Shown here: in pieces, positions 20,854 to 45,516 of the stretch
Numbering within the stretch: position 1 is the first letter of the stretch
How the letters are laid out: every line of letters starts with the position of its first letter
Sequence record: PV808484.1
Strand: one strand, 5' to 3'
Origin: a phage
DNA: 64,000 bases
Position numbers and translations under genes: made by a program
Notes under the pieces: generated by a model
What the model saw: only the letters and a program-made list of their open reading frames with translations
Told to the model about the DNA's origin: nothing
The model's database searches: none

Positions 20854-21111
20854 TTAGGAATGCATAAAATCTTCTTCAGGGCAGGTTGAAAGATAAGAGA
20901 TGCACGTTGGGACAACAACAACATTGTCTTTAAGGTTTGCAACCAAGCCTTTTGTAATTCCAGCCACTGCCCCGTTAATATCTGCTTGACGGATACCAAA
21001 ACCTTGTTGTGCGGATAGATAACAAAATCCCTCACCTTTCTGTTGATTATTATTGAAGTAATAAACGTAGTGCATCATAAAATGGTCTTTAACGATTTGT
21101 TCTGTGGTCAT
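20854..21111 (-). CDS. hypothetical protein
   Basis: ORF track. Confidence 0.4.
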   Translation of the reverse strand: MTTEQIVKDHFMMHYVYYFNNNQQKGEGFCYLSAQQGFGIRQADINGAVAGITKGLVANLKDNVVVVPTCISYLSTCPEEDFMHS

Positions 21112-21126
21112 AATATTCTCCTATAA

Positions 21127-21147
21127 GAAAAGGGGCTTTCGCCCCCT
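21127..21147 (-). terminator. terminator hairpin GGGGCTTTCGCCCC (recurrent element)
   Basis: same hairpin at 32417 and 45499. Confidence 0.5.
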
Positions 21148-21155
21148 TGGTCAAG

Positions 21156-21968
21156 TTACTTAGTCAAATGATCTTCTATCATTTTTATGAAAGCAGGATT
21201 GCTAAAAGCATCTGCTGCCTTTTCTCTATAAACAAAGACTCCTCTATCTTCGTAAAGAAGAGTTTCTTCGTAATTAATTCCTGGGTTAACAACAATCATT
21301 TTTGTACCCATATTAAGTGCAGGGAATAATTCCCAATTAAAATTGATAACTTGGTTTGAACATCCTACTACAACAACCAAATCTTGCATGGTCAAAGTAT
21401 CAAACAAGTGAGCCATATCTGCATACAAAGGTGCAGCCTCACCAAAAAATACAACATTAGGCTTCACCCAGTTATAATCATCTATGTTTATACTATTGTA
21501 ACCAATGTCTACCAGTGTTTTGTAATCTCCAGGATGCATACGGTAAACTACTTCAGGAAGATACCCGTGCACGTGAATAACAGAATCCCTGTCCACACCT
21601 GCTCGCTCTAGTAGATCATCAACGTTTGTTGTCAAGTTTACTACTTGGTTAGGATATTCCTTAAACCACTTTGCTATTTGAATATGTGCAGCATTAGGTT
21701 GTACATCTTTAAGCTCAACACGTCTTTTGTTATAAAATTCGTGTGTTTTGGCATACAAGTCCATACCGTTCTCGTCTACACCACCGACCACTGGAAGATC
21801 TGGAGATGTTCTCACACGATAACCTGCTTGGAAAGCTCCAATATCGCAGACCTCTTCTAAGTCATATTCTTCCCATAAGGCACGACCACTATCTGTGTCT
21901 GTTCGGAACGTTCGAATCCCACTGTCTGCACTTAAACCTGCGCCACTAACAAAAATTACTCTTCGCAT
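21156..21968 (-). CDS. sirtuin-like (Sir2/CobB family) NAD-dependent protein
   Basis: GAGLSADSGIRTFR, NVDDLLERAG, HVHGYL and VVFFGE match sirtuin signature blocks in order. Confidence 0.75.
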   Translation of the reverse strand: MRRVIFVSGAGLSADSGIRTFRTDTDSGRALWEEYDLEEVCDIGAFQAGYRVRTSPDLPVVGGVDENGMDLYAKTHEFYNKRRVELKDVQPNAAHIQIAKWFKEYPNQVVNLTTNVDDLLERAGVDRDSVIHVHGYLPEVVYRMHPGDYKTLVDIGYNSINIDDYNWVKPNVVFFGEAAPLYADMAHLFDTLTMQDLVVVVGCSNQVINFNWELFPALNMGTKMIVVNPGINYEETLLYEDRGVFVYREKAADAFSNPAFIKMIEDHLTK

Positions 21969-21979
21969 TCAATATCCTC

Positions 21980-22525
21980 TTAGTAATCATCATCCCAAGA
22001 AGATGCGTCGTAACGCTCTTCCTCTTCGAAATCCCAATTAATTTCTACTCCAAAATCTAAAAACAATTTAACAATGTTTTCTGTAGAGTAGTATTTATCA
22101 TAAGCATTAGCTAGTTCCCAATACTTGTCACTCAATTTTTTATATTTAGGATCATTATAGTCATAATCTACTTTATAACCATAATCATACATCTCTTGTT
22201 CAGCTTTAAGCATAGCTTCTGGTGTAAGAAGATTAGGGAACGGACGATTTCTTTCTTTTAACTTAGAAGCAATCCAGTTTGCAACATTCGCCACTTCACC
22301 ATCTCGATTATCACCTAAACAACTTGCATAATCTCCATCTTCGTAAGTGCCTAAATCCCCACTAACTTCATGTACAATAGACGAATACGATCCACACGTT
22401 TCACAATCTGAAAAAGTGTCTACTGTTGTAATATCAATAGATAAAACTGGTAAAGCCATAGCTTCTTTCACACAAGCCTCCTCATATAATAACATGTCAT
22501 CAAAACCCATATATCCTCCAGACAA
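21980..22525 (-). CDS. hypothetical acidic protein
   Basis: ORF track. Confidence 0.45.
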   Translation of the reverse strand: MSGGYMGFDDMLLYEEACVKEAMALPVLSIDITTVDTFSDCETCGSYSSIVHEVSGDLGTYEDGDYASCLGDNRDGEVANVANWIASKLKERNRPFPNLLTPEAMLKAEQEMYDYGYKVDYDYNDPKYKKLSDKYWELANAYDKYYSTENIVKLFLDFGVEINWDFEEEERYDASSWDDDY

Positions 22526-22564
22526 ATAAAGCCCCTGTTTGGGGCTTTGGTTAAGTTTTACGGA

Positions 22565-23176
22565 TTATACCAGACTTTTAAGGTACTTGTCAAGGGCTTC
22601 TTGATCACCTTGACAAACATAGCAACGGAAGTCTTGAGCAGAAGGTTCTTTGTCCTCGTCCCAATCCCAATAGACAGTACCTTTATAGCGTGAGCCTGGG
22701 AACTCGAAGTATGCCACATGAGTAATATGGTGTGGGCCACCCCAAAATTCTGTAAAAGTAAATTGAGGATACGCTGCTTTAACTGTATTTTCAAACCAAG
22801 TTTTACGATCTAATGCTTCGTTTATAAAATAAGCATGGCGTTCCATTTCATCCCAATCTTTCCAAACGCATTTTTCATCCAGAGAAAAAACAAAATCTTC
22901 ACTGTTAAAATCGTCTGTATCTGATTCCAAAATATCATAATCATGTGCACTAGGTATCCACCATCCAGCTTCTAATAGTGCTTTTGCAGGTACAAAACCT
23001 TTTTCAGCATATTGATCAAATTCTTTTACTCTACGTACAGTGCAGTATTCATCTTCACCACCAATGTCCAGTAGACAAGCACCTTTGCGTCTTGCTGCAA
23101 GACCATGTGTATCAAAAACTACAACACTACCTTCACCGTCTTCACGATCTACTTGATATGCAACTTTTTGAGTCAT
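22565..23176 (-). CDS. hypothetical protein
   Basis: ORF track. Confidence 0.45.
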   Translation of the reverse strand: MTQKVAYQVDREDGEGSVVVFDTHGLAARRKGACLLDIGGEDEYCTVRRVKEFDQYAEKGFVPAKALLEAGWWIPSAHDYDILESDTDDFNSEDFVFSLDEKCVWKDWDEMERHAYFINEALDRKTWFENTVKAAYPQFTFTEFWGGPHHITHVAYFEFPGSRYKGTVYWDWDEDKEPSAQDFRCYVCQGDQEALDKYLKSLV

Positions 23177-23299
23177 ATTACCCCCAATGTATATGGGAAA
23201 TTAACCAAAAGATAAATTCCCAAAAACACCAACCAAGAAAAGTTAATGGAATTATAAAGGCTATCAGAGCAGTCTTCCAGCCTTTCCACAATGTTTCCA

Positions 23300-24289
23300 C
23301 TATTCCTCCATACATTTAAGAATATGTGCAATGACAGGTATAGTCCAACCGTTACCTAACATCTTATATGCTTGTGTGTTACTACTCACTTTAAAGTAAT
23401 CATCTGGCACACCTTGCAAGCGGCAACACTCTTTAACCGTTAACTTTCTATAATGTACGCCTTCACTCAATTTTTCAAAGGCATCTAGATATCTTCCAGG
23501 TGGAATGTAGGCTAATAGTACGTCTTTAGGCACAGTCGTGAGGCAACGAGTTTTTTCACTGTCCTGAACTTCCAAACAATGTACCAAACGATCAGTTTTA
23601 GATGTACTACGTTTGCCATTTTCATTAATTCTACGCCCATATATTGCTGCCGGATAAAAAACCAGTTGTCTGCGACTCTTTTCAAAATACTGTTCTATAT
23701 TACCACCTTTGGCATAATTTGCATCTATGCAATAAGCCTTATCTCTGTCTACAATACTATCATCTTCAATGATATCTTGCAACACTTCATTGGTAATCTC
23801 CCAGGGTTTTATTTCCCAGTTGCACCAGTATAAACGTTGTCTATTCTGTGCCGTGAAATCTGCGGAGTTAATGAATACGGGATCAACACCTAAGTAACTT
23901 GTGATCACGTTTTCCCACTCCACTTTCATCTTAACGTTTTCAAGCATGAACTTAACATTAGGATTAAACTTTTTAATATGTTCAAGAATTTCAACATATT
24001 CGAAGAATAGCTTAGATCGCGGATCTTGAAAGTTCAAACCCTTACCAGAAGAAGAGAAGCCTTGACACGGACTACCACCTAACAAAAGATCAATTTCTCC
24101 CCACGGGATATCCCATTCTCTCCATTTTGTAACATCACCTAACTGAATAATATCTGGAAAATTTGCTTGGCTTTCAGCTACGGCAAATTTGTCTAATTCT
24201 GAAGCGTAATATGTATCTACTTCAATACCTGCACTTTTTAGCGCAAGCATTCCTCCTGACATACCATCAAAAAGACTTAAAACTTTCAT
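23300..24289 (-). CDS. dcm: DNA (cytosine-5)-methyltransferase
   Basis: LFDGMSGG (motif I), GGSPCQGFS (motif IV), ENV (motif VI). Confidence 0.85.
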   Translation of the reverse strand: MKVLSLFDGMSGGMLALKSAGIEVDTYYASELDKFAVAESQANFPDIIQLGDVTKWREWDIPWGEIDLLLGGSPCQGFSSSGKGLNFQDPRSKLFFEYVEILEHIKKFNPNVKFMLENVKMKVEWENVITSYLGVDPVFINSADFTAQNRQRLYWCNWEIKPWEITNEVLQDIIEDDSIVDRDKAYCIDANYAKGGNIEQYFEKSRRQLVFYPAAIYGRRINENGKRSTSKTDRLVHCLEVQDSEKTRCLTTVPKDVLLAYIPPGRYLDAFEKLSEGVHYRKLTVKECCRLQGVPDDYFKVSSNTQAYKMLGNGWTIPVIAHILKCMEE

Positions 24290-24291
24290 TA

Positions 24292-24702
24292 TTACTTCTT
24301 CTCCTTAACACTAGCTGGTAATTCTGCCTTGAGGCAGAAGTTTAAACGGTAAGCCTCATTCTCATTTAAAAGTACAGATTCACACGATAACCAGAACAAG
24401 AGATCCTCAATACCAGGACTGTTAAGCCAACAGTGCAGAAGAGAATGTTGTTCTATATCAATGTAATTTAGTAACAAGGCTTGTAAGGCGTAACTAGTTC
24501 CTGTCGTTTTTGCTTTTTCAAGGATGATATTGTGTTTACTAACAACTTTCTTCCTAAGACCAAACCATTTATTAACAACAACAGTCTCTTCTTGTAGTTG
24601 TTTTCTTATTTTCTCACATTCTTTAACTACAATCTGCATCTTATCCACTGCTGATTGAAGTTGTTCTTTTGTTGGGTTTACAAAATAATCACTATAATAC
24701 AT
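24292..24702 (-). CDS. hypothetical protein
   Basis: ORF track. Confidence 0.45.
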   Translation of the reverse strand: MYYSDYFVNPTKEQLQSAVDKMQIVVKECEKIRKQLQEETVVVNKWFGLRKKVVSKHNIILEKAKTTGTSYALQALLLNYIDIEQHSLLHCWLNSPGIEDLLFWLSCESVLLNENEAYRLNFCLKAELPASVKEKK

Positions 24703-24784
24703 GCTAAACTCCTCTTCTGTTTTTCTGTAGTCTATTCGAAAAAACTGGTGTTGTCAACAAAAAACCCGCCGAAGCGGGTTTATA

Positions 24785-25042
24785 TTATTCTACAGGAACT
24801 TCTTCACCAAGAGAAACTTCTAAACGGAATGCTTTACTTTCAATACATTCACTACCTTTTAAGAAATCGAATTGCACTATAGACTGACTTAATAGAATAG
24901 ATAGAATCACATCGCAATCTTCACTAGGGGCTAGATGTTTGTATTCTTCCTTCAAGGTAACATCATAAAAACATAAGTCCCCTACTCCTAGTTCATCCCA
25001 TCCTTCCCATGCATCTACAAAGTTAAATTCTAAACCTTTCAT
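24785..25042 (-). CDS. hypothetical protein
   Basis: ORF track. Confidence 0.4.
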   Translation of the reverse strand: MKGLEFNFVDAWEGWDELGVGDLCFYDVTLKEEYKHLAPSEDCDVILSILLSQSIVQFDFLKGSECIESKAFRLEVSLGEEVPVE

Positions 25043-25563
25043 ACAACCTCCTCGTAATCGTTATTGTGTTTTACTGTCTCAACATACAATAAAGATTCCA
25101 TCTGTAATACATTACCAGAAAGAATAAACCCATAAGCCATTTCAGATGTGTCTATATCATATGCCCCGTCTTCCGGTTTAGCAAAGTGTAAAACTATTTC
25201 ATCTGGGTTTTCTGCATCCCATAGTTTAGAAATTTTCCGAACCAGAATGTTAGCTAAAATAGTTGACATTCGGGATAAAGCTGTATCCTCATATCTTTTA
25301 AAACCTAGCCAATAGAGGTTAAGAATTTCTACTTCTTCTTGTGTTAAGTTTTTGTCTAAAGTAATCAGATCTGTAGAGCACGGCGTTTTTGTTGAACCTA
25401 CTGTTACAAAACCTGGAGTGTTATGAAAAACAATCTTAACTTTATCACGTATAAAGTTTAAACCTTGTGCCTCAACTATATATTGTATTGTAGGTACAAT
25501 ATCGTTTGTTACATCAATAAAACTATCTTTAATGACGCTTATATTATTTCTGGACAAGACCAT
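25039..25563 (-). CDS. hypothetical protein
   Basis: ORF track. Confidence 0.45.
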   Translation of the reverse strand: MVLSRNNISVIKDSFIDVTNDIVPTIQYIVEAQGLNFIRDKVKIVFHNTPGFVTVGSTKTPCSTDLITLDKNLTQEEVEILNLYWLGFKRYEDTALSRMSTILANILVRKISKLWDAENPDEIVLHFAKPEDGAYDIDTSEMAYGFILSGNVLQMESLLYVETVKHNNDYEEVV

Positions 25564-26122
25564 TCTCCTCTAAAATAGGCTTAATAAATTCGAAAATTTG
25601 TTTTTTACTTTTACCTCGAATATTAAAACAAGGAACATTAAACTTTTTAGCCAACATCCAAGCTGTTCTTGTACCACCTAAAGGATCTCCATTTTTATCT
25701 GTATTTGCACAAGCTAAAAGAAAACAAGATGGTTTTGGATTCTCAAGATCTCTTCCAAGAACTTGGTGGATATTTCTTTGATGTAATTTTTTAGCACCTT
25801 GAGATAATCTGTCCCAAGCTGGATGCAATTCTTTTGCATATTGCAAGGTTAGAGCATAGTTTACACTATCTGGTCTGTCAAGAACAATAACCTCTCCCTC
25901 TATTTCATTACCTTTAAACGAGAGCCAAGGGATGTATATTTCTTTCTTTGTATTGTTCCCACTATCATATACCCCGCATTCAAATGCGGAATCTGCACCT
26001 TCTGCTTTACCGGATCGCAAAATGAACCATGTAGATAACCATTTTGCAACAGATACCATAGTATCCCATTCTTCGTCTGTAATATCTCTGCTACCAACAC
26101 CTGTGTAGAATAAATCGCTCAT
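25544..26122 (-). CDS. Rossmann-fold nucleotide-binding protein, possibly SLOG/DprA-like
   Basis: start moved to ATG 26122 (AAGGAG RBS); YTGVGSRDIT and GKAEGADSAFECG glycine-rich loops; family assignment tentative. Confidence 0.35.
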   Translation of the reverse strand: MSDLFYTGVGSRDITDEEWDTMVSVAKWLSTWFILRSGKAEGADSAFECGVYDSGNNTKKEIYIPWLSFKGNEIEGEVIVLDRPDSVNYALTLQYAKELHPAWDRLSQGAKKLHQRNIHQVLGRDLENPKPSCFLLACANTDKNGDPLGGTRTAWMLAKKFNVPCFNIRGKSKKQIFEFIKPILEENGLVQK

Positions 26123-26132
26123 GGTTTTCTCC

Positions 26133-26453
26133 TTAACAAGTAATATTGGGAGTAACAATTGGATTAACAATTGGAGTAATAGGGTACGTAAACCAAGGGC
26201 TTCCAATTTCCCAAGGATAATAAGGTCTACGAGGATCGTATGGAGGAGTTACTTCAGGCTTTTTCCAAATCTCCGCTAATTGTTTCTTCCATTTATCCCT
26301 TGCTGTCTCATTATCTTCATCCAACTGTTCATCATTATCTTTTATTTCTGGTTTTGGAAATAAAAGCTCTTTGACTAATTCAACATCTTCCGTCTCAATA
26401 GTAGTTTCTTTCGTAAGTTCTCCTACTGTTTCTTTAATTGTGATTTTATACAT
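26133..26453 (-). CDS. hypothetical Pro-rich protein
   Basis: ORF track. Confidence 0.4.
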   Translation of the reverse strand: MYKITIKETVGELTKETTIETEDVELVKELLFPKPEIKDNDEQLDEDNETARDKWKKQLAEIWKKPEVTPPYDPRRPYYPWEIGSPWFTYPITPIVNPIVTPNITC

Positions 26454-27199
26454 TAGTCCTCCTCTAAAGTAGAATAAAATTGTAACGTATTTGAATCATC
26501 AAAATATGCAAAGGTTAAATTACCATTGAAGCAAGATCCTGTGTCCATATATACCCTATTACTGCTAATCACAGGTTTAGGAACATAAGAATGCCCGTGA
26601 AATACATAATCTACTCCTGAAACCCTAGGAAGAAGAATTCCTTCAAGTGCGCAATCTATCATATCACGATCCCACATTAAAGATTCTGTGAATCGAGAAA
26701 CTTGCTCTTTATTCATATTCAAACAAAATGGCAAAACTTCTGTCACTGGCAAATGTTCCAAAACTGAAGGATACCCACCGTGAATAAAGCCTAGTTTCAT
26801 ATTACGATAATTGACAACAAGTACAACAGGTAAATCTTCTAGCATCAAAGCAAGAGCAGTTGCACCCTCTTCTCCACACTCGTCTAGAACTGTATGGCCT
26901 CCGTTCTGAAACCAACATTCGTAATATCGTCTATCACCTTCTAGCAACCCTTTAATCATCATATCTTCATGGTTCCCACGAATAGCATAACGATTTAGCT
27001 TTCTGGTGAATTCAACAACACAACGAAAATTCTGCTTGCCGCGATCTGTAAGATCTCCTAAAGATACAACAACATCTTGATCTCGGATACCTAAAGTATT
27101 AACACCTTTCTGGTACAAATCAAAGCAACCATGTAAATCACCAATAATAAACAGGTCTTGATCATCTTTTACACTAATTTCTTGATATACTAACATCAA
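26453..27199 (-). CDS. PPP-family Ser/Thr protein phosphatase (lambda-phosphatase-like)
   Basis: GDLHG, GDLTDRG and GNHE metallophosphoesterase motifs in canonical order. Confidence 0.85.
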   Translation of the reverse strand: MMLVYQEISVKDDQDLFIIGDLHGCFDLYQKGVNTLGIRDQDVVVSLGDLTDRGKQNFRCVVEFTRKLNRYAIRGNHEDMMIKGLLEGDRRYYECWFQNGGHTVLDECGEEGATALALMLEDLPVVLVVNYRNMKLGFIHGGYPSVLEHLPVTEVLPFCLNMNKEQVSRFTESLMWDRDMIDCALEGILLPRVSGVDYVFHGHSYVPKPVISSNRVYMDTGSCFNGNLTFAYFDDSNTLQFYSTLEED

Positions 27200-27522
27200 C
27201 TCTCCTCAAAATCCATAAGTATAAAGATATTAACTTTACCTTCTATATTATGTTCTACAACAAGATCTGCAAATTCTTTGTAGGCTTTTTCTTCTATTTG
27301 TTCAATGTGAGACGCTACATCTTTGTATATAGCGTCACCATCTACTTTAACAAGGAGGAATAGAGATCTTACTTCAATCTCTTTATTTTTACGGGGTAGA
27401 AAATCGACGGCTTCTTGTATACGCCAGCCGAGATACCCTGGAGTCCTTTGAATATCCTCCAAATGACTTTCTAAGATTTCCCTTCCTTTGTCTATTAAAG
27501 CCTGTTCTGTCGTTATTTTCAT
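27196..27522 (-). CDS. hypothetical protein
   Basis: ORF track. Confidence 0.45.
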   Translation of the reverse strand: MKITTEQALIDKGREILESHLEDIQRTPGYLGWRIQEAVDFLPRKNKEIEVRSLFLLVKVDGDAIYKDVASHIEQIEEKAYKEFADLVVEHNIEGKVNIFILMDFEES

Positions 27523-27532
27523 CCCCTTCTCC

Positions 27533-28105
27533 TTAATGTGTTAATGAAACTGCGTAGCTAAACACAGGTTCAGATATTACATCGGCTACAGTAATAAAAA
27601 CGTCTTCGTCTTGAGTTGTTTCTACACGACATACAGTTACACCATTCACCACGAATTCAACGCAATGTGGAATATTTTCACAAACGAAGGTAGTGTAAGT
27701 AACACCCAAAGCATCATACAAAGATTTAACAGTGTTTGCAAGTGCCGCAGTTTCTTCTTTTTCTGAGACAATGAATGCTGTAACAACAAGATTGTTTGCA
27801 TAGTTTAGACTGTCCTCTATAGCCAATGATTTACAAGGTAGTAATGCAAAATATTTACCTGGTTTAATCAGACCTGCTTCCCATTGATTCAAAATTGCCT
27901 GGGATGGTTTAGTAATATAAAACAGATTTTCACTTGGGTTATCAATATTACTTCTGGCGATACAACGTGAAGGATTATTAATATCAAACACATGATCAAA
28001 ATCTACACAAACAGGTAAACTGAAAGGTGTGAATTTTTTACCTAATAATCCTATGGCTGATAATATGTTTGCTGTGCTTATCTTCCCGTTAAAAGCTAAA
28101 CGCAT
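27533..28105 (-). CDS. hypothetical protein
   Basis: ORF track. Confidence 0.45.
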   Translation of the reverse strand: MRLAFNGKISTANILSAIGLLGKKFTPFSLPVCVDFDHVFDINNPSRCIARSNIDNPSENLFYITKPSQAILNQWEAGLIKPGKYFALLPCKSLAIEDSLNYANNLVVTAFIVSEKEETAALANTVKSLYDALGVTYTTFVCENIPHCVEFVVNGVTVCRVETTQDEDVFITVADVISEPVFSYAVSLTH

Positions 28106-28116
28106 ATTTAACTCCT

Positions 28117-28320
28117 TTAACTAGCAACCGTAACTTCCGAACTTTCTTCTTTCGTACTGTCTACGATATGCCTGGTGGCAATATACGAGACTTGCCAGTT
28201 ACCATCTGGTGTAGTCTCAATAAGTACCCTATCTACTTCGAGAAAATGCAAAAATTCAACCATCGCTCGCTTCGATAGGAATTGTTTTTTAACAGTCTCC
28301 TCAAAAGATTGAACTGCCAT
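28117..28320 (-). CDS. hypothetical protein
   Basis: ORF track. Confidence 0.4.
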   Translation of the reverse strand: MAVQSFEETVKKQFLSKRAMVEFLHFLEVDRVLIETTPDGNWQVSYIATRHIVDSTKEESSEVTVAS

Positions 28321-28329
28321 GTTTCCTCC

Positions 28330-28992
28330 TTATTTAATATTCAATTTTGCACAAAGACGTTGTACCGCTTTGGCATCGAACAAACTCCCACGAATAGTTC
28401 TCTTTCCTGATTCATTCAGATGCTTTGCAATCGTCATATATGGCGTTTTACAAGCTCTGTATGCAACTAAAGAATCTTTTAAAGAAAGCGCAAACTCTCT
28501 TGAGCGTTTTGCTTCTTCCGTTTTCGTATAATCTGTTCTTTTGTATTTAGGGTTTGCTGCACCAAGAAGCGTTCCCTTCGCTTTTGCTACCTTAAGGCTC
28601 TTCTTAACACGATCAGATATTGCACGAGCCTCTTCTTCTGCCAGAACTGCTAAAATATTTATTATCATATTTTCAGCGGAGGGCATAGTTGCTATTCGTA
28701 CATTAATCATCTCTAACAAGGTTGCAACAGAAGCTGTGTTACGTCCAAGACGGTCAACCTTAGCAACAACAAGTGTAGCACCTGTTTCTTTGCAAAGATT
28801 AACAGCTTTTACAAGCTCTCTACGTTGCTTCCAATCGCCTTTACCCGAATAAAACTCTGCAAAGCTACCTACAATAGTATAATTTTCTTGTGAATCCAGG
28901 AAGCGTTGAATATCTGCTTCCTGTGATTCTATACCATACTGGTTGCCTTGTTGTTTCTTCTTAGAAAGTCGATGATATAGTACAAACTTCAT
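28330..28992 (-). CDS. serine recombinase (resolvase/invertase family)
   Basis: N-terminal YHRLSKKKQ (catalytic Ser), VVAKVDRLGRN, SDRVKKSLKVAKAKG; C-terminal HTH-like tail. Confidence 0.75.
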   Translation of the reverse strand: MKFVLYHRLSKKKQQGNQYGIESQEADIQRFLDSQENYTIVGSFAEFYSGKGDWKQRRELVKAVNLCKETGATLVVAKVDRLGRNTASVATLLEMINVRIATMPSAENMIINILAVLAEEEARAISDRVKKSLKVAKAKGTLLGAANPKYKRTDYTKTEEAKRSREFALSLKDSLVAYRACKTPYMTIAKHLNESGKRTIRGSLFDAKAVQRLCAKLNIK

Positions 28993-29049
28993 AATACCCT
29001 CCTGTTCTGTTACAGGAAGTATGCACTACCTTAATGTTAAAGTCAACAG

Positions 29050-29253
29050 TTAAGTAGTGGTAATATCATCCTCTTGAATACCAGGGTCAACTTCTGCAAA
29101 GATAGCCTCTACAGGAATTTCTTCACCTGCTATTCTAGAAAGAAGCACTGAACCAATAGCTTTTGCGTGTTCTTCGGATTCCGCATAAACATTAGTTCCT
29201 GTGTCTTTTTTCTTAGTTTCGTTAAAATATACCAGATAGTAATTGTATGCCAT
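29050..29253 (-). CDS. hypothetical protein
   Basis: ORF track. Confidence 0.4.
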   Translation of the reverse strand: MAYNYYLVYFNETKKKDTGTNVYAESEEHAKAIGSVLLSRIAGEEIPVEAIFAEVDPGIQEDDITTT

Positions 29254-29504
29254 TATTCATCCCAATCGTTGTTACGAGCACTTTCAAGAACCTTGACAAC
29301 TTCTGCATACTCTACAGCTAAACCAGCACACACTTCAGCTTGTTTTGCAATTGCTTGTTTAAAGAACATAGCGATTGCAACACTCTGTGTTGTGTGAATG
29401 TTATCTGCTTTAGTTGATACATGAAGATCAAAATCTTCTTCATCAAAGGTGAGTTCCATAGTAACAATAAATTTCTCGGTCATAAAAATGCTCCTCTTAA
29501 ACAA
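29253..29504 (-). CDS. hypothetical protein
   Basis: ORF track. Confidence 0.4.
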   Translation of the reverse strand: MFKRSIFMTEKFIVTMELTFDEEDFDLHVSTKADNIHTTQSVAIAMFFKQAIAKQAEVCAGLAVEYAEVVKVLESARNNDWDE

Positions 29505-30006
29505 AATAGAAAGGTTGAGTTAAACCCAGCCTGTTTTTTGGGTCGTAGACGTACCAAGCATATGCTGTCTTATCAGTACCACCTGCAACAAAAGATGGTC
29601 GTTCAGAAAGAACAATCAAATTTGTTGGTGGATTCTGTTTATGGAATTCCCTTCGTTTAATAGACTCTAGGAACCCAAGACGCAACAAGTATATGCAAAC
29701 GTCTGCTTCTTTTAAGCTCTTTTGCAAGAACTCAAGTGCAAGTTTGAATGGGGGATTTGTGATTATAATATCCGGCTTAGTATGCCATTCGTGGTTAAAA
29801 TAATCTTTCCCTTCTTCTAACTCACAATATTCTGATCCTTCTGGAAAATGTTGATAAATTGCAGCAGCAGCGCCTTTACACGGTTCTGCAAAAATAAAAC
29901 CTTCTTCTTTAAGGTTATTAAAATCTATTACACTAAATAATGCATTTATACATTTTTGTGGAGTAGGATAGTAATCAGTTGGTGGACGATCATACTTATT
30001 TGCCAC
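29497..30006 (-). CDS. DNA N6-adenine methyltransferase (small phage Dam-like)
   Basis: YPTP, EPCKGAAA (AdoMet loop) and IITNPPF motifs. Confidence 0.6.
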   Translation of the reverse strand: MANKYDRPPTDYYPTPQKCINALFSVIDFNNLKEEGFIFAEPCKGAAAAIYQHFPEGSEYCELEEGKDYFNHEWHTKPDIIITNPPFKLALEFLQKSLKEADVCIYLLRLGFLESIKRREFHKQNPPTNLIVLSERPSFVAGGTDKTAYAWYVYDPKNRLGLTQPFYFV

Positions 30007-30424
30007 TACTTAAAATCTCCTCTTTTGTGATTTCAGGGTCTTCTTCAAAAACCATAATATCTCTTAAGAACGTTAATTCTTCCATAGATACTGGTATTGT
30101 ATCTTCTTCTGTTTTTCGTTTACATAAATCGTCAAGAAAGTTTTTAAAGTTTTCTGACAAGTCGTAAAATTTCAACAGTTGATAATCACAGGAGGAGATC
30201 CTATCTAGTTCTAACATTCTTTCTAAGATATTTTCTGTGTTGCCGTACAACACACGAACTTCTCCGAAAGGGTTGACTAAATATTGTGAAGTTCTGAACC
30301 ATCCCTTTTTAGATACAGTGTAACGCTGTTCTGCTAAACTTTCAATAAAATTTTTAGCTCTTTTACAGTTTTGTTCTAAAGAGTAGTAGGCTTTTTCTAC
30401 AAAGTTTACAGGTACTGGTAACAT
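29996..30424 (-). CDS. hypothetical protein
   Basis: ORF track. Confidence 0.45.
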   Translation of the reverse strand: MLPVPVNFVEKAYYSLEQNCKRAKNFIESLAEQRYTVSKKGWFRTSQYLVNPFGEVRVLYGNTENILERMLELDRISSCDYQLLKFYDLSENFKNFLDDLCKRKTEEDTIPVSMEELTFLRDIMVFEEDPEITKEEILSSGK

Positions 30425-30429
30425 ATCTC

Positions 30430-30458
30430 CTCCTAATAACCCCCCTTGAGGGGGTTTA
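30430..30458 (-). terminator. terminator hairpin CCCCCCTTGAGGGGG
   Basis: read directly. Confidence 0.5.
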
Positions 30459-30465
30459 TACTAGA

Positions 30466-31119
30466 TTAATTATCAGAGGACACTTTATCAAGTTTTTCAG
30501 AGACTGTCAATACTTTTTCTTGTGATTCTTTCATTTCTGCTAAAATACTTTCAGCTTCATCACTATCAGGATCACCAGTCAACAGCATACTAATTAGTTG
30601 CTCCTTGCTGAAGTTCAGAATATCTTCCGCTGTTAACTCCAGTTGTTCTTCGATCTCTTCGATAAAAGTTTCACCGCCTGAAAAAGCATCTCGCAGTTTT
30701 GCAACTTCCATCGCTTCTTCTGGGGTTGCCCCAGCGTCTAAAGCTGCTAAAGCAAAATCTGCCCCACTACCCACAGCATAATAATCTTCAGTTAAAGGAT
30801 ATGCTCGCGTTGGATTATTACCCTCGTGCATATAAATTTTACCGTCTGGGTGAACAACCAATGCCACAAACTCTTCATCTTCTTTATCAGGATCTGACTG
30901 GATCACCAAACCTGGGATTGTCTCTTGTGCTGCTTGGCATTGTAAGTTTTGTTCGAACCAAGAAAAGAAAGTCAGGATAGAAGACAGACGTCCTGCACCA
31001 CCAACAAGGTAATCCCCAATTTTACGCACTTTCTTGAAATTTAAAGTGTCTACACGACTACCTACTGTTACCTTACCGTCAGACAGAATTTTGTTACGTG
31101 TTGCAATAATTGTTGTCAT
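30466..31119 (-). CDS. HslV/proteasome beta-subunit-like N-terminal-nucleophile peptidase with acidic C-terminal extension
   Basis: MTTIIATR (Thr2), KKVRKIGDYLVGGAG and YAVGSGADFALAA align with the HslV N-terminus, Gly-rich loop and GSG block. Confidence 0.6.
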   Translation of the reverse strand: MTTIIATRNKILSDGKVTVGSRVDTLNFKKVRKIGDYLVGGAGRLSSILTFFSWFEQNLQCQAAQETIPGLVIQSDPDKEDEEFVALVVHPDGKIYMHEGNNPTRAYPLTEDYYAVGSGADFALAALDAGATPEEAMEVAKLRDAFSGGETFIEEIEEQLELTAEDILNFSKEQLISMLLTGDPDSDEAESILAEMKESQEKVLTVSEKLDKVSSDN

Positions 31120-31610
31120 TATACTTCCTCCTGTAGTGTTTTAAGGACTGCTTTACCACCGCTTACATATTTACGGAGGTAATCAATAGCTCTTAGTGTT
31201 TCTTTATCCACAAGAATTTTATTAGTTCTTGTTAGTGGATGATTTAGTAAATCACTGCAATTTCTTACTAACATAGATTTCTTGTGAAAGATACTGCTAA
31301 GAAAAAGAAGTTTAGAATCTTCTTCATCAATCAGGAGTAATTCTGAATTAGACCCAGCTATATTTATTATACACTCAAACAAGCCTTCTTGACTATCAGA
31401 TAATTCCTGGTAATATTTAGTTAGCCAATCCTCGCCTTTTAACCAACTAAAAAACATCTGAACTTTTTGCAAAGTTGTCATGTTCTCTAAACGAAGAGAT
31501 ATTTCTTTTTCAATCTTGTCAATATAAATCTGTCTAAACTCATTCGGCTTAACTAAGCCAGCTTGATAGCATTCATCAATACCATTGCGATCAATCTCAA
31601 TTAGCGTCAT
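31119..31610 (-). CDS. hypothetical protein
   Basis: ORF track. Confidence 0.45.
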   Translation of the reverse strand: MTLIEIDRNGIDECYQAGLVKPNEFRQIYIDKIEKEISLRLENMTTLQKVQMFFSWLKGEDWLTKYYQELSDSQEGLFECIINIAGSNSELLLIDEEDSKLLFLSSIFHKKSMLVRNCSDLLNHPLTRTNKILVDKETLRAIDYLRKYVSGGKAVLKTLQEEV

Positions 31611-31646
31611 TTAACCTCCATAACAGGCATCCTTGCCTTGTAATTA

Positions 31647-32399
31647 TTAATATACTTCCGTGATGAACTGAGACAAACGGGAACGTTGGTTATCAGCAGT
31701 TGTCATTTCAACATAACCAATAAAATCCACAATAGCTTCCCTTTCTCCTTCTTCGTTAATAGGAACAACACGATCTAACAAATCACCTAACCCGTTAGCT
31801 CTTCGTTTAATTGCATATGTTTGATTAACATCGCCCATAATGACAATACGTGTATTAAGACCTGCTCGCTCAAGGAGAAGTTTTACTGTATTTGGTGACA
31901 TAAGTTGAACTTCATCAATAAGAATAATGCTGTTATCCCACGTAGCACCTAGTGCATAGTTTGGAATATTAAGTTCAATTTTGCCACTTGCAATATCGTT
32001 TTCCAATTTATTTGCAGTCATAAACTGTTGGAAAATTCTTTTAGTTGATTCGTAGTGTGCTGCTAGTTTATCAGTTTTATCTCCAGATAAGAAACCAATT
32101 TGATCATCACCTACTTCTGTCGGGTTTTTAAGGAAAATCAACTTTCTGAAATCACCAGCTTTAAGCATTTGCAATGCTTTCCATAGTGCTGTTGTCGTTT
32201 TTCCTGTTCCTGCTGGGGCATTAACAATGGTTAAATCATTCCAAACCATGCTTCTTACAATAGCTTCTTGATTCCCAATAGGGGTAAATTCATCAAGACG
32301 GTAATCATCATTTCCTACTGCTTTAGCCGCATAACGACTGGCACGTTTGTCATCATTGGCTGCTGATTGACGACGAGCCTTTGCGGTTTTATTTCCCAT
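31647..32399 (-). CDS. phoH: PhoH-like ATPase
   Basis: Walker A GTGKTTTAL and overall PhoH-like layout. Confidence 0.8.
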   Translation of the reverse strand: MGNKTAKARRQSAANDDKRASRYAAKAVGNDDYRLDEFTPIGNQEAIVRSMVWNDLTIVNAPAGTGKTTTALWKALQMLKAGDFRKLIFLKNPTEVGDDQIGFLSGDKTDKLAAHYESTKRIFQQFMTANKLENDIASGKIELNIPNYALGATWDNSIILIDEVQLMSPNTVKLLLERAGLNTRIVIMGDVNQTYAIKRRANGLGDLLDRVVPINEEGEREAIVDFIGYVEMTTADNQRSRLSQFITEVY

Positions 32400-32416
32400 G
32401 TTTGCACTCCTTATAA

Positions 32417-32434
32417 AAGGGGCTTTCGCCCCTT
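32417..32434 (-). terminator. terminator hairpin GGGGCTTTCGCCCC
   Basis: recurrent element. Confidence 0.5.
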
Positions 32435-32437
32435 TGT

Positions 32438-32938
32438 TTAGTTATAAGCGTCTAATGTTCCAGTTTTAAGTACCTGAATTACACGCTCTGCGCGATTAGG
32501 CGTTTGGCGATACCATTTACTTTTACGTAAATTTATAGAGGCTTGAGTATAATATGAATTACTCACTAAAGTCAAGCTATTTTTGAAAGATTCTGCACCT
32601 TTCAATCCCATTTGAAATACCATATTAATAATAGCCATTTTACGATTAGGACTTACTTTATCGTAAATAGGAGATAATATGGTACTTGAATGGATTTGTT
32701 GTATCGCTTTCTTTACGTCACTCTCAAAGATTTTTCTAGCTTCCGCTTCAGTAATAACTCCATTGGTTTTTCTACCTACTAAGTTATCAAGAATGCGTAT
32801 AGCTTCTGCTTTATCTTTGCGTTTTGTCAGAAGGTGTCCAATACCAACTGTCCAATACCCTTCGGTATCAGGATATACAGTTAGCTTTAGTCCTTCATCA
32901 AAACGTAACATATCAAACACATCAACTACCTTAGCCAT
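32438..32938 (-). CDS. T4-type lysozyme (endolysin)
   Basis: N-terminus MLRFDEGLKLTVYPDTEGYWTVGIGHLLT matches the T4 lysozyme catalytic Glu/Asp/Thr block; C-terminal KSKWYRQTPNRAERV. Confidence 0.9.
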   Translation of the reverse strand: MAKVVDVFDMLRFDEGLKLTVYPDTEGYWTVGIGHLLTKRKDKAEAIRILDNLVGRKTNGVITEAEARKIFESDVKKAIQQIHSSTILSPIYDKVSPNRKMAIINMVFQMGLKGAESFKNSLTLVSNSYYTQASINLRKSKWYRQTPNRAERVIQVLKTGTLDAYN

Positions 32939-32950
32939 GTTTTCCTTATA

Positions 32951-33094
32951 TCAGTCGCCCTCCCCATGATCTAGCTCTTGAAACAGTAGGTGTTCAGGAG
33001 ACATTTCACGTTTAGGCTTCGTCTTTTTAGTTTGGGACTTAAGCTCTGTTGCCAAAGCACGAGAAAAGATCTTACGTTTCTGTTTACCTTTCAT
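32951..33094 (-). CDS. small basic protein (47 aa)
   Basis: ATG 33094 to stop 32951; Lys/Arg-rich; below ORF-track cutoff. Confidence 0.25.
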   Translation of the reverse strand: MKGKQKRKIFSRALATELKSQTKKTKPKREMSPEHLLFQELDHGEGD

Positions 33095-33098
33095 ATTG

Positions 33099-33365
33099 TT
33101 ACTCCGCAATCTGAGCCATGAATTCACGTAGTTCAGAAAAACCTCCTACGTGGGTTAGCTGTTCACCATCTTCCACAAAAATCTGAGGAAATGTGCGTGG
33201 TAGAACACCTGTTTTCTCTAAAACCAGATTCTGAATCTGATCTAAAGAATAGTCTTCATCTAAGGTAAGGTATTTAAAATCCTGTTCACGCTGTTCTAGT
33301 AGAATCTTAGCGTTAGTGCAGAAAGGACAATTTGGTTTACCGTAGATAATAAAATTCATTTTCAC
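33099..33365 (-). CDS. glutaredoxin/NrdH-like redoxin
   Basis: N-terminal IYGKPNCPFC active site; next to the nrd genes. Confidence 0.8.
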   Translation of the reverse strand: MKMNFIIYGKPNCPFCTNAKILLEQREQDFKYLTLDEDYSLDQIQNLVLEKTGVLPRTFPQIFVEDGEQLTHVGGFSELREFMAQIAE

Positions 33366-34192
33366 TCCTTGTTTAAAAGTATAGTTAAAGTTCTTACAAT
33401 ACCGCTATCAACACTTCGCGGATTTAAAGTAGGATCTGTTTTTAAATAAGATGTTGCTGGTCTGACTGCTTTGGAATTATAGGTTGAAGCAGACACAGGA
33501 TTAACTGTAACAGATAAATCTATAACAAGAAATATCTTTCGTGCAAAATCATACCAAGAAATATAATCTGCACCTGCATAGTGTACAATTTTACTATTTA
33601 CACCATCTTTTACAAGTTTAAAAATTGTTTCTGCAAGATCAGGTGCATAAGTAGGACATGATAAATGATCACATACTACATTAAATTCTTTTTGACCACC
33701 GTTGTAGCGTTCCAACATAGTTTTCAAAAAGTTATGTCCAAATTCACTATAAACAGAAGCTGTTCTGATAATAAGTGCTGTAGGACAAACTGTTTGTACT
33801 AAAGTTTCACCTAATTGTTTACTGTAACCGTAGGTGTTCAAGGGGTTTGTTTTACTATCTTCTGTGCCAGCAACATGCCCATCAAAAACATAGTCTGTTG
33901 AAATATGTACAAACTGTATCAGTAAATCATTACATGCTTTGGCAATGTTTGTTGCACCGTATGCATTAACATTTATACAGGTGTTAACATCTTCTTCAGC
34001 TTTATCTACTGCCGTGTAAGCCGCACAATTCACAACAACATCAGGCACATGCTGTACAAGACTATTCATAACATCTTTAAAGTTGGTAATGTCTATATCA
34101 CTTGCTTCAATCAAAACAACATCTTCTGGTGCAACTTTTGCCAAAGATTGTCCTAATTGACCTTTTGATCCAAAGACTAAAAATTTTGTCAA
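33362..34192 (-). CDS. rmlD: dTDP-4-dehydrorhamnose reductase
   Basis: VFGSKGQLGQSL N-terminal Rossmann motif, VNCAAYTAVDKAEED, STDYVF, YGYSK; last gene of the rml operon. Confidence 0.85.
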   Translation of the reverse strand: MTKFLVFGSKGQLGQSLAKVAPEDVVLIEASDIDITNFKDVMNSLVQHVPDVVVNCAAYTAVDKAEEDVNTCINVNAYGATNIAKACNDLLIQFVHISTDYVFDGHVAGTEDSKTNPLNTYGYSKQLGETLVQTVCPTALIIRTASVYSEFGHNFLKTMLERYNGGQKEFNVVCDHLSCPTYAPDLAETIFKLVKDGVNSKIVHYAGADYISWYDFARKIFLVIDLSVTVNPVSASTYNSKAVRPATSYLKTDPTLNPRSVDSGIVRTLTILLNKE

Positions 34193-34743
34193 AGTATGAT
34201 CTCCTTTAGTGTTTTTGCTTCCTGATCTTTTTGTGACAAGATAGGTTTAAAATTAATATCATTAAAGATTAAATCAAAACCCCAATCTATATTGATATCT
34301 GGATCATTCCACGCAAGACTACATTCTGAAGTCGGATCGTAATATTCTGTACATTTATATTCAAAATCAGCAATATCGCTAATCACAACAAAGCCATGAG
34401 CGAAACCAGGAGGAATCCAAAATTGTGTTTTATTCTTTTCAGATAAGAGAACACCTACCCATTCTCCAAATGTTGGACTACCAACCCTAATATCTACAGC
34501 AACATCATAAACTTCACCACGAACACAGCGTACTAACTTCCCTTGTGGGTTTTTCTTTTGAAAATGAAGCCCACGTAGAACTCCTCGGATAGAACGTGAA
34601 TGGTTATCTTGGACAAAGTTTTGTTTACCTATGTATTGATCATATAAAGCCTGATTAAAACTTTCTAAGAAAAAGCCACGTTCATCTCCGTAAACGTCAG
34701 GTTGAATGATCAACAAATCTTCGATTTTTGTTGCTTGAATCAT
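34189..34743 (-). CDS. rmlC: dTDP-4-dehydrorhamnose 3,5-epimerase
   Basis: DERGFFLESF, RGLHFQ and WIPPGFAHGF cupin motifs. Confidence 0.85.
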   Translation of the reverse strand: MIQATKIEDLLIIQPDVYGDERGFFLESFNQALYDQYIGKQNFVQDNHSRSIRGVLRGLHFQKKNPQGKLVRCVRGEVYDVAVDIRVGSPTFGEWVGVLLSEKNKTQFWIPPGFAHGFVVISDIADFEYKCTEYYDPTSECSLAWNDPDINIDWGFDLIFNDINFKPILSQKDQEAKTLKEIIL

Positions 34744-34755
34744 TTAATTCCCCTT

Positions 34756-35625
34756 TTATTTTAATTTAAGTAAATACTTACCGTAGTCTGTTTTACTTAA
34801 AACCTCTCCAGAACTTTTTACAGAGTCTAAAGTAATCCATTCATTTTTAAAAGCAATCTCTTCCAGGCATGCAACCTTCATACCTTGTTGCTTCTCTATT
34901 GCATGAACAAATTGAGATGCTTCCATAAGACTTTCATGTGTTCCTGTATCCAGCCAAGTGAAACCTCTTCCTAGCTTACAGACACGTAAAGCCTTTTCTT
35001 TCCAGTACATCTCATTTATATCTGTGATCTCTAACTCCCCTCTAGCAGAAGGCTTAACGCTTTTAGCTTTCTGTATAACAGAATTATCGTAAAAGTACAA
35101 GCCTGTAATTGCATAGTTGCTTTTTGGTGCTTTTGGTTTTTCTTCAATACTTACTACTGTACCTTCAGAATCAAACTCAACAACACCAAATCTTTCAGGA
35201 TCATTTACGTGATACCCAAAAATATTAGCTCCACCATTCTTTTCAATATGTTCTCTAGCAGAATCTAAAATGCTACCAAAACTCTGACCAAAGAATAAAT
35301 TATCACCTAGAACAAGTGCTACAGAATCTTCACCAATAAAGCTCTCACCAATAATAAACGCTTCTGCTAAACCTTTTGGGCTGTCCTGTATTGCATACTG
35401 TAGGGAAACACCAAAAGAAGAACCATCACCTAGAAGATTTACAAAATTAATTTGATCTTCTGGTGTTGTAATTATTAGTATTTCCCTAATTCCAGAAAGC
35501 ATTAGGACAGAGAGTGGATAATAAATCATAGGTTTATCGTAAATTGGTAATAGTTGTTTACTAACCCCTTTAGTAACTGGGTAAAGTCTTGTCCCACTAC
35601 CACCCGCTAAGATAATACCTTTCAT
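34756..35625 (-). CDS. rmlA: glucose-1-phosphate thymidylyltransferase
   Basis: [39 protein letters not shown] is close to the enterobacterial RfbA N-terminus. Confidence 0.95.
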
Positions 35626-35633
35626 ACTCCTCC

Positions 35634-45481: not shown

Positions 45482-45498
45482 AAATCCTCCAAAAATAA

Positions 45499-45516
45499 AG
45501 GGGCTTTCGCCCCTTT
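45499..45516 (-). terminator. terminator hairpin GGGGCTTTCGCCCC
   Basis: recurrent element. Confidence 0.5.

What the first reader, a model, noticed from the sequence alone, without database searches (positions are those of the whole stretch)
23300..30006. Two DNA methyltransferases of different classes in the same block
A C5-cytosine methyltransferase (23300-24289) and a small gamma-class N6-adenine methyltransferase (29497-30006) lie a few kb apart. Methylation of phage DNA on both C and A would protect against a broad range of restriction systems, and combined with the possible sugar pathway suggests layered DNA protection.
Basis: partly seen in the sequence, partly recalled or inferred. 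Interest (0 to 1): 0.4.

Follow-up and report, generated by a model that had tools for sequence, protein, structure and literature searches.

The report
Two orphan methyltransferases in phi92-like phage
The two genes are real and already annotated in near-identical E. coli phages, but published tests show these phages are easily cut by restriction systems, so they do not give broad DNA protection.

Summary
The window is a phi92-like E. coli myophage (Justusliebigvirus), 99.2% identical to phage EmilieFrey (Bas61).

- **Observation confirmed.** Both ORFs sit at the stated coordinates, on the minus strand.
- **23300-24289** is a complete C5-cytosine DNA methyltransferase (PF00145, E 1.7e-43; all catalytic motifs present).
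- **29497-30006** is a 169-aa NPPF methyltransferase with gamma-type motif order and no target-recognition domain. It reaches no Pfam or NCBIfam threshold.
- **Already annotated.** GenBank calls them 'Dcm-like C5 cytosine methyltransferase' and 'putative N6 adenine methyltransferase'.
- **Orphans under selection.** Neither has a neighbouring endonuclease, and both show strong purifying selection.
- **Different histories.** The C5 gene is a genus-level accessory, absent from phAPEC8. The small gene is conserved across Stephanstirmvirinae and Vequintavirinae.
- **Interpretation not supported.** In the one raw-data row read, EmilieFrey formed no plaques on EcoRI, EcoRV or EcoP1 hosts. Relatives PATM and Pau lose 7 logs to BREX. 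[quoted passage not shown]
- **Best reading.** These are narrow, site-specific orphan methyltransferases whose targets cannot be predicted. The small enzyme's substrate is unproven: its fold matches rRNA m6A and DNA m6A enzymes equally well.
- **In passing.** 25 of 64 palindromic hexamers are absent from the window (about 4 expected). Site avoidance looks like the main anti-restriction strategy.

The parts
23300..24289 (-). Orphan C5-cytosine DNA methyltransferase, 329 aa (phi92 gp043; EmilieFrey bas61_0190). Motifs: I FDGMSGG (7-13), IV GGSPCQGFS (catalytic Cys75), VI ENV (117-119), VIII QNRQR (148-152), IX RKLTVKECCRLQGVPDDY (about 281-298), X GNGWTIPV (312-319). The variable target-recognition segment spans about 212-280.
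   Evidence: PF00145 E 1.7e-43. TIGR00675 142 bits. PADLOC MTase_II E 9.9e-46. PDB matches to DNMT3A, M.HhaI and M.HaeIII at about 1e-23 to 1e-22. Motifs are invariant in a 30-sequence alignment. 100% amino-acid identity to EmilieFrey, muut, inny and PATM. pN 0.10 against pS 0.77 versus an 85%-identical relative.
29497..30006 (-). Small stand-alone NPPF (amino-group) methyltransferase, 169 aa (phi92 gp056; EmilieFrey bas61_0203). Motifs: X-like YPTP (13-16), I-like EPCKG (41-45), acidic E62, IV TNPPF (83-87). It has no target-recognition domain. It is probably a DNA N6-adenine methyltransferase, but the substrate is not shown.
29996..30424 (-). 142-aa ORF of unknown function whose end overlaps the start of the small methyltransferase by 11 nt. 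It is context only, not a demonstrated partner.
   Evidence: The overlap is visible. There is no Pfam or PADLOC hit. Homologues occupy the same position in phAPEC8 (46% identity) and L003 (26%), but not next to distant homologues of the methyltransferase.
It is context only, and no link to DNA has been shown.
   Evidence: RmlD_sub_bind 2.4e-73, dTDP_sugar_isom 3.2e-72, NTP_transferase 2.7e-76, GDP_Man_Dehyd/Epimerase 1.1e-81. The same genes are annotated in EmilieFrey and phAPEC8.

Best explanation
The block holds two independent orphan SAM-dependent methyltransferases of a virulent phi92-like coliphage. Neither is part of a restriction-modification system, and together they do not form a broad shield.

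(1) The 329-aa enzyme is a standard C5-cytosine DNA methyltransferase. By the established mechanism of this family, it flips the target cytosine out of the helix. Cys75 of the PCQ motif attacks C6, the ENV glutamate protonates N3, and SAM donates the methyl group to C5. A variable segment (about residues 212-280) reads a short sequence that cannot be predicted from sequence. The gene is an accessory of the Justusliebigvirus lineage.

(2) The 169-aa enzyme is a minimal Rossmann-fold methyltransferase with the NPPF motif of enzymes that methylate exocyclic amino groups. It is most likely a DNA adenine-N6 methyltransferase with a short specific site. It is an old, conserved gene of the rV5/phi92 supergroup.

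Each enzyme would mark progeny DNA at one motif. That protects only against restriction enzymes sharing the motif, or serves some other phage-internal purpose.

Shown here: gene identity, intact motifs, fold, orphan status, distribution and purifying selection. Shown by others: these phages are highly sensitive to EcoRI, EcoRV, EcoP1 and BREX. Inferred: that the small enzyme acts on DNA adenine, that either enzyme is active in infection, and that the purpose is anti-restriction.
For: Identity and intactness: for the C5 enzyme; for the small enzyme.

Orphan status: no flanking ORF matches a Pfam or PADLOC nuclease model. Homologues of the C5 enzyme sit in phage or prophage replication modules without endonucleases.

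Functional constraint: C5 pN 0.10 against pS 0.77; small enzyme dN/dS 0.065.

Distribution:
- The C5 enzyme is at least 95% identical in only 55 phage records, all 40 listed being phi92-like. Identity then falls below 60%, in Vibrio, Bacteroides and Cellulophaga phages.
- It is absent from the syntenic block of phAPEC8 and of L003.
- The small enzyme occurs in 501 phage records: Justusliebigvirus, Phapecoctavirus at about 87%, rV5-like at about 47%, and KVP40 in part.

DNA substrate for the small enzyme:
- Sub-threshold Pfam hits are mostly DNA adenine methylases: EcoRI_methylase in 29 of 32 members, N6_Mtase in 10, Dam in 9, Eco57I in 8.
- There is a weak PADLOC type II MTase hit.
- Distant homologues lie among other phage DNA methyltransferases: PF05869 and PF02086 in L005, PF00145 in L009.
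- The best BFVD structural matches are phage 'DNA methyltransferase' entries.

Narrow rather than broad protection: RM and BREX sensitivity. EcoRI and EcoRV sites occur at expected frequency in the genome.
Against: No methylome or nucleoside data for any phi92-like phage turned up in the held literature, so the activity of either enzyme on virion DNA is unverified.

I could not predict a target for the C5 enzyme. K-mer statistics gave inconsistent hints: CCWGG is at 1.17 of expectation in the window but 0.60 in another 50 kb of the genome type.
Confidence: 0.65

Rival explanations
1. Combined m5C and m6A methylation, plus a sugar modification fed by the rml genes, gives the phage layered protection against a broad range of restriction systems.
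For: Two methyltransferases of different chemistry lie in the block, and a third, Dam-like, lies elsewhere in the genome type. The rmlABCD genes lie 3 kb away. Olsen et al. speculated that rhamnose might glycosylate hydroxymethylated bases. The BME3 paper asserts a protective role without testing it.
Against: In the raw-data row read, EmilieFrey gave no plaques on EcoRI, EcoRV or EcoP1 hosts. The authors conclude there is no effective protection despite the sugar genes. PATM and Pau are BREX-sensitive by 7 logs and are not listed as BrxU-sensitive. Bas61 and Bas62 are sensitive to Druantia III and ARMADA II. The only thymidylate-synthase-like gene I found among the window ORFs scanned is ThyX-type, and I found no base hydroxymethylase among them. 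The genome instead shows extreme restriction-site avoidance, which a broadly masked genome would not need.
Confidence: 0.04
2. The 169-aa enzyme does not methylate DNA. It methylates RNA (host rRNA, or phage or host tRNA, at adenine N6 or guanine N2) or a protein glutamine, as other small NPPF/NPPY enzymes do (METTL5, RsmD, TrmN6, HemK). It would then tune translation during infection.
Against: Gamma-class DNA enzymes score almost as high (MmeI 12.9, TaqI 12.8, HsdM 12.3). Sub-threshold sequence hits favour DNA adenine methylases, as does the PADLOC hit. Distant homologues cluster with DNA methyltransferases in phage replication modules. From general knowledge, METTL5 needs the partner TRMT112, whereas no conserved partner gene accompanies this family.
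Confidence: 0.18
3. The methyltransferases do act on phage DNA, but their main role is not anti-restriction. The methyl marks would serve phage-internal purposes: telling phage DNA from host DNA for phage nucleases, controlling packaging or replication, or timing gene expression. Dam methylation does this for P1 packaging.
For: Both genes are under strong purifying selection, although the phage is readily restricted. The small gene is conserved over a very wide phage group regardless of host, which fits a housekeeping role better than an arms-race role. The genome already handles many restriction sites by avoidance.
Against: There is no direct evidence. The C5 gene is accessory and patchy, which fits an arms-race gene better. 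Its homologues carry several alternative recognition segments, as expected for defence evasion.
Confidence: 0.12

Closest known systems
Orphan phage and prophage C5-cytosine DNA methyltransferases of the PF00145 family (mechanistic models M.HhaI and M.HaeIII; the catalytic core also resembles DNMT3A/B)
   Same: All conserved motifs are present in the standard order, with a variable recognition segment between motifs VIII and IX. The match covers the whole Pfam model. Like many phage copies, it has no partner endonuclease.
   Different: The recognition sequence is unknown. It is not an orthologue of E. coli Dcm: the NCBIfam Dcm model scores 30 bits against a cut-off of 710, and only over motifs IX-X. 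The GenBank label 'Dcm-like' is therefore generic. The family has a conserved block of its own after motif VIII, VDRDK.C.DANY.KGGN..YF.K.RRQLVF.
Gamma-class N6-adenine DNA methyltransferases (M.TaqI, M.EcoRI, MmeI, type I HsdM)
   Different: The protein is 169 aa with no C-terminal target-recognition domain. The SAM loop reads EPCKG rather than a G-x-G loop. No curated model reaches threshold. DNA as substrate is unproven.
METTL5 / PH1948-type small rRNA m6A methyltransferases
   Different: Sequence identity is only 17-18%. The profile search gives E 0.44. No conserved partner gene is present. The genomic company in other phages is DNA methyltransferases.
Restriction-site avoidance as a phage anti-restriction strategy (Rusinov et al. 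2018; T7 and N4 relatives in the BASEL study)
   Same: The genome lacks 25 of 64 palindromic hexamers, the same kind of signal described for other coliphages.
   Different: This is a property of the genome, not of the two genes. It does not cover GAATTC or GATATC, which is why the phage is sensitive in the BASEL assays.

Membership tests
C5-cytosine DNA methyltransferase (PF00145 / TIGR00675) | Score above the curated thresholds over the whole domain | tested here: met
   PF00145 scores 149.8 bits against 22, covering residues 1-327. TIGR00675 scores 142 bits against 100.65.
C5-cytosine DNA methyltransferase (PF00145 / TIGR00675) | Catalytic motifs: I FxGxG, IV PCQ with the nucleophilic Cys, VI ENV, VIII QxRxR, IX and X | tested here: met
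   FDGMSGG, GGSPCQGFS (Cys75), ENV (117-119), QNRQR, RKLT..E..RLQG.PD.Y and GNGW..PV are all present. The core residues are invariant across 30 homologues.
C5-cytosine DNA methyltransferase (PF00145 / TIGR00675) | Produces 5-methylcytosine at a defined DNA sequence | not testable with these tools
   The held literature contains no methylome data for phi92-like phages. The recognition segment (212-280) varies among homologues.
E. coli Dcm orthologue (CCWGG) | Match to the Dcm subfamily model at threshold | tested here: not met
   NF007772 (PRK10458) scores 30 bits against a cut-off of 710, over residues 280-328 only.
Gamma-class N6-adenine DNA methyltransferase | Motif IV (D/N)PP(Y/F), and the linear order motif X, then SAM-binding motif I, then motif IV | tested here: met
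   YPTP 13-16, EPCKG 41-45 and TNPPF 83-87 are invariant or nearly so in 32 homologues.
Gamma-class N6-adenine DNA methyltransferase | Class I Rossmann-like methyltransferase fold | tested here: met
Gamma-class N6-adenine DNA methyltransferase | A C-terminal target-recognition domain after the catalytic domain | tested here: not met
   The protein ends at residue 169, with the last predicted strand at residues 166-168. Nearly all family members are 150-220 aa.
Gamma-class N6-adenine DNA methyltransferase | Match to a curated DNA adenine methylase model at threshold | tested here: not met
   The best hit is PF13651 EcoRI_methylase at 13.6 bits against 26.4. There is no NCBIfam hit.
Gamma-class N6-adenine DNA methyltransferase | DNA adenine N6 as the methyl acceptor | not testable with these tools
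   The fold matches RNA m6A and DNA m6A enzymes about equally well.
Type II restriction-modification system | A cognate restriction endonuclease gene next to the methyltransferase | tested here: not met
   The flanking ORFs have no Pfam or PADLOC nuclease hit. Homologues elsewhere also lack one.
Phage DNA sugar hypermodification (T4-like glucosyl-hmC type) | Phage DNA resistant to restriction systems whose sites it contains | tested here: not met
   Published plating data show no plaques on EcoRI, EcoRV or EcoP1 hosts. GAATTC and GATATC occur at expected frequency in the genome.
Phage DNA sugar hypermodification (T4-like glucosyl-hmC type) | A pyrimidine hydroxymethylase plus a DNA glycosyltransferase | tested here: inconclusive
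   Among the window ORFs scanned, the only thymidylate-synthase-like gene is ThyX-type. EmilieFrey has annotated glycosyltransferases outside the window, which I did not analyse.

The most novel reading that the evidence does not exclude
The 169-aa protein belongs to a very large family of TRD-less NPPF methyltransferases: about 13,000 clusters at 50% identity, nearly all 150-220 aa. In the contexts sampled here the family sits in phage genomes. It has no curated model and, as far as I could find, no characterised member. It might not be an ordinary site-specific DNA adenine methylase. It could methylate rRNA or tRNA to reprogram translation. Alternatively it could recognise DNA in a new way using only loops of the catalytic domain; in some homologues a four-cysteine insertion sits at that position.
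Probability: 0.2. Interest if true: 0.5.

Novelty: already known. Interest (0 to 1): 0.15.

Why it matters
As stated, it matters little. Both genes are already annotated in dozens of near-identical genomes. The idea that they shield the phage has been raised in print and does not fit the published restriction-sensitivity data.

Two residual points have some value. First, the small enzyme belongs to a huge uncharacterised family whose substrate nobody seems to have tested. Second, this therapeutically interesting broad-host-range phage group appears to rely on restriction-site avoidance rather than DNA modification. That would predict which host restriction systems will stop it.

Tried and rejected
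- **C5 target from neighbouring endonucleases.** All homologue contexts examined were orphan phage or prophage genes.
- **C5 target from solved structures.** DNMT3A, M.HhaI and M.HaeIII match equally well, and only over the catalytic core.
- **C5 target from k-mer non-avoidance.** GCGC and GATC are not depleted, but CCWGG gives 1.17 in the window and 0.60 in another 50 kb, and avoidance predates the gene. I rejected this as a predictor.
- **Conserved partner or specificity subunit for the small enzyme.** The overlapping upstream 142-aa ORF is conserved only within Stephanstirmvirinae.
- **Informative domain fusions in the small-enzyme family.** None appeared among the longest members.
- **Sequence search of the small enzyme against PDB.** The single sequence gave nothing. 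The profile gave only weak matches around NPPF.
- **Methylome or restriction-digest data for phi92-, phAPEC8- or rV5-like phages.** None is in the held library. The phi92 genome paper, the PVP-SE1 paper and Kelly et al. 2023 are not held. The 2026 Durham modification paper covers only BrxU-sensitive T-even-type phages.
- **afdb50 fold library.** It was unavailable.
- **Structure prediction for the C5 enzyme.** I did not run it, because it could not have settled the target sequence.
Full report
**What the window is.** Region 21000-33000 is 99.2% identical over its full length to Escherichia phage EmilieFrey (BASEL Bas61, MZ501063). It is 98-99% identical to dozens of other phi92-like phages (Justusliebigvirus, Stephanstirmvirinae), including phi92 itself, PATM and Paula. 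Experiments on those phages therefore apply to this sequence.

**Checking the observation.** Both ORFs exist at exactly the stated coordinates, on the minus strand.
- ORF 23300-24289 (329 aa) matches Pfam PF00145 end to end (E 1.7e-43). It also matches TIGR00675 above its cut-off and a PADLOC type II methyltransferase model.
- It carries every catalytic motif of C5-cytosine DNA methyltransferases, including the PCQ cysteine (Cys75), ENV and QNRQR. These are invariant across 30 homologues.
- ORF 29497-30006 (169 aa) reaches no Pfam or NCBIfam threshold. It matches phrog_799 'DNA methyltransferase' strongly (E 7.8e-57).
- It holds the only (D/N/S)PP(Y/F/W/H) motif among window ORFs of at least 80 aa: NPPF at 84-87.
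- GenBank already names the two genes 'Dcm-like C5 cytosine methyltransferase' (bas61_0190) and 'putative N6 adenine methyltransferase' (bas61_0203). In phi92 they are gp043 and gp056.

**The C5 enzyme.** Its closest solved relatives are DNMT3A/B, M.HhaI and M.HaeIII, all at about 1e-23 to 1e-22 and only over the catalytic core.
- It is not an orthologue of E. coli Dcm. The Dcm model scores 30 bits against a cut-off of 710.
- It belongs to a very large family: 8000 scored hits, the listed ones mostly 50-64% identical. In the three contexts I examined, the gene is an orphan in a phage or prophage genome with no endonuclease nearby.
- In the family alignment the catalytic motifs and a family-specific block (residues 180-211) are conserved. 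Residues 212-280 fall into several unrelated subtypes. That is the expected look of a swappable recognition segment, and it means the target cannot be read from sequence.
- Among sequenced phages the protein is at least 95% identical in only 55 records, all 40 listed being phi92-like. Identity then drops below 60%.
- It is missing from the syntenic block of phAPEC8 and of a more distant relative, L003. It is present at 85% identity in another relative, L015.
- Against L015 it shows pN 0.10 and pS 0.77.

It is therefore a functional, horizontally acquired accessory gene.

**The small enzyme.** Homologues are almost all 150-220 aa stand-alone proteins with no Pfam domain.
- A profile search of 1.84 billion representatives finds 13,254 clusters at E up to 1e-3 and 388 at E up to 1e-30. 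Longer members show no informative fusions.
- Invariant residues are YPTP (13-16), E-P-C-x-G (41-45), T-N-P-P-F (83-87) and a C-terminal set: R118, R136-P137, F139, D145, Y149, W151, D155.
- The AlphaFold model is confident (pLDDT 90.1, pTM 0.87). It is a single Rossmann-type domain that ends at residue 169.
- The motif order is gamma-like, but the defining C-terminal recognition domain is absent.
- Weak evidence leans toward DNA. Sub-threshold Pfam hits are mostly DNA adenine methylases (EcoRI_methylase in 29 of 32 members). One PADLOC type II MTase model hits weakly. In unrelated phages the gene sits among Dam-type or C5 DNA methyltransferases.
- No conserved partner gene accompanies it.
- It is an old gene of the group, present in 501 phage records from Justusliebigvirus to rV5-like phages. 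dN/dS against phAPEC8 is 0.065.

I put about 0.65 on a site-specific DNA m6A enzyme and about 0.2 on an RNA or other substrate.

**The functional claim.** It does not hold up.
- Maffei et al. tested Bas60-62 against six RM systems. [quoted passage not shown] They attribute this to the many recognition sites in such large genomes.
- In the one EmilieFrey raw-data row I read, the count was 2.7e7 pfu on vector. It was at the floor value that stands for no plaques on EcoRI, EcoRV and EcoP1.
- Picton et al. found the near-identical PATM and Pau reduced seven orders of magnitude by BREX. They list them among the five BREX-sensitive phages, not the 13 sensitive to BrxU, which cuts 5mC-, 5hmC- and glc-5hmC-containing DNA.
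- Bas61 and Bas62 are also sensitive to Druantia III and ARMADA II, which the authors think recognise unmodified DNA.
- These results show that adenines in GAATTC, GATATC, AGACC and GCTAAT are not masked. The small enzyme is therefore not a non-specific adenine methylase, and there is no bulky base modification.
- They do not exclude methylation at other short motifs, which is what orphan site-specific enzymes do.

**The sugar pathway.** The genes are rmlD, rmlC, rmlA and rmlB at 33362-36623. They are shared with phAPEC8 and L003. I found no evidence that links them to DNA. The only thymidylate-synthase-like gene I found among the window ORFs scanned is ThyX-type, and the restriction data argue against a sugar-decorated genome.

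**What the genome does instead.** While counting sites to look for the C5 target, I found that 25 of the 64 palindromic hexamers are completely absent from the 64-kb window. The summed expectation from a maximal-order Markov model is 113.6.
- The same 25 are absent from window plus 50 kb of EmilieFrey, with summed expectation 221.
- Simulated Markov order 3 and 4 sequences lack about 4 on average, and at most 7.
- Only 6 of about 1964 non-palindromic hexamer pairs with expectation of at least 5 are absent.
- GGWCC is also absent (0 against 16.4). GGCC, CATG, CCGG and CTAG are depleted, whereas GATC and GCGC are not.
- Twenty-two of the absent hexamers are also absent from 40 kb of phAPEC8, which lacks the C5 gene. 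Avoidance is therefore ancestral and independent of that enzyme.
- GAATTC (25 against 27.9) and GATATC (42 against 42.9) are not avoided. This matches the sensitivity to EcoRI and EcoRV.

Site avoidance, not methylation, looks like the main anti-restriction strategy of this lineage.

**Other context.**
- The genome type has a third methyltransferase outside the window: the Dam-like bas61_0037, which is probably the phi92 gp155 that RAST calls 'Adenine-specific methyltransferase'.
- The BME3 paper counts four methyltransferase CDSs in a member of this genus.

**Verdict.** The interpretation of broad, layered DNA protection is contradicted by published phenotypes. The most useful open point is the untested substrate of the small TRD-less NPPF family.

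Noticed in passing
window 1-64000 (whole window); also L010 and L014: Extreme restriction-site avoidance. 25 of 64 palindromic hexamers are absent from the window, including AAGCTT, CTGCAG, GGATCC, GGTACC, AGTACT, CAGCTG and CCATGG. The summed expectation is 113.6, and Markov simulations lack about 4 on average (at most 7). GGWCC is absent (0 against 16.4 expected) and GGCC is at 0.3 of expectation. GAATTC and GATATC are not avoided. 22 of the absent sites are also absent from 40 kb of phAPEC8.
   Followed up: partly
outside the window: EmilieFrey MZ501063 35999-36730 (L010): A third methyltransferase, annotated 'Dam-like N6-adenine methyltransferase' (bas61_0037), lies elsewhere in this genome type. 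It is probably the phi92 gp155 that RAST calls adenine-specific methyltransferase. GATC is not depleted in the genome (ratio 1.01).
   Followed up: partly
window 33362-36623 (-); EmilieFrey 44552-47728 (L010): A complete dTDP-L-rhamnose pathway (rmlD, rmlC, rmlA, rmlB) lies in a virulent phage. In the near-identical EmilieFrey, four annotated glycosyltransferase or 'disaccharide synthase' genes sit next to the DNA polymerase and primase. The acceptor of the sugar is unknown, and published restriction sensitivity argues against DNA.
   Followed up: partly
window 28330-28992 (-): A 220-aa serine recombinase (Resolvase N-terminal domain, E 8.4e-22; PHROG 'DNA invertase') lies in a phage regarded as strictly lytic. 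I did not look for inverted repeats or an invertible segment.
   Followed up: no
window 21156-21968, 25544-26206, 30466-31119, 21980-22525, 27533-28105 (all -): The same block encodes a Sir2-family protein, a DprA-like protein and an HslV/proteasome-like peptidase. It also encodes two small proteins labelled aminoacyl- or histidyl-tRNA-synthetase-like. Their roles in infection are unknown.
   Followed up: no
window 60271-62876 (+): A cluster of 14 tRNA genes.
   Followed up: no
homologues P0056, P0061, P0073, P0087, P0094, P0106, P0117 (alignment A1, columns about 165-200): About a fifth of the sampled homologues of the small methyltransferase carry a cysteine-rich insertion of about 30 residues between the RPxF and TD..YAW motifs. 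It has C..C....C..C spacing and looks like a zinc ribbon. It sits where a recognition element might be. The phi92-like copy lacks it.
   Followed up: partly
search hits H25, H93-H96 (MG065639 and others): Several GenBank records named 'Campylobacter phage' with host C. jejuni are 98-99% identical to these E. coli phi92-like phages. This suggests mislabelled hosts or contaminating coliphages in that data set.
   Followed up: no
window 42173-43144 (-): The thymidylate-synthase-like gene is of the flavin-dependent ThyX type (Thy1, E 3.9e-9). The match is weak and partial, so its product is worth checking.
   Followed up: no
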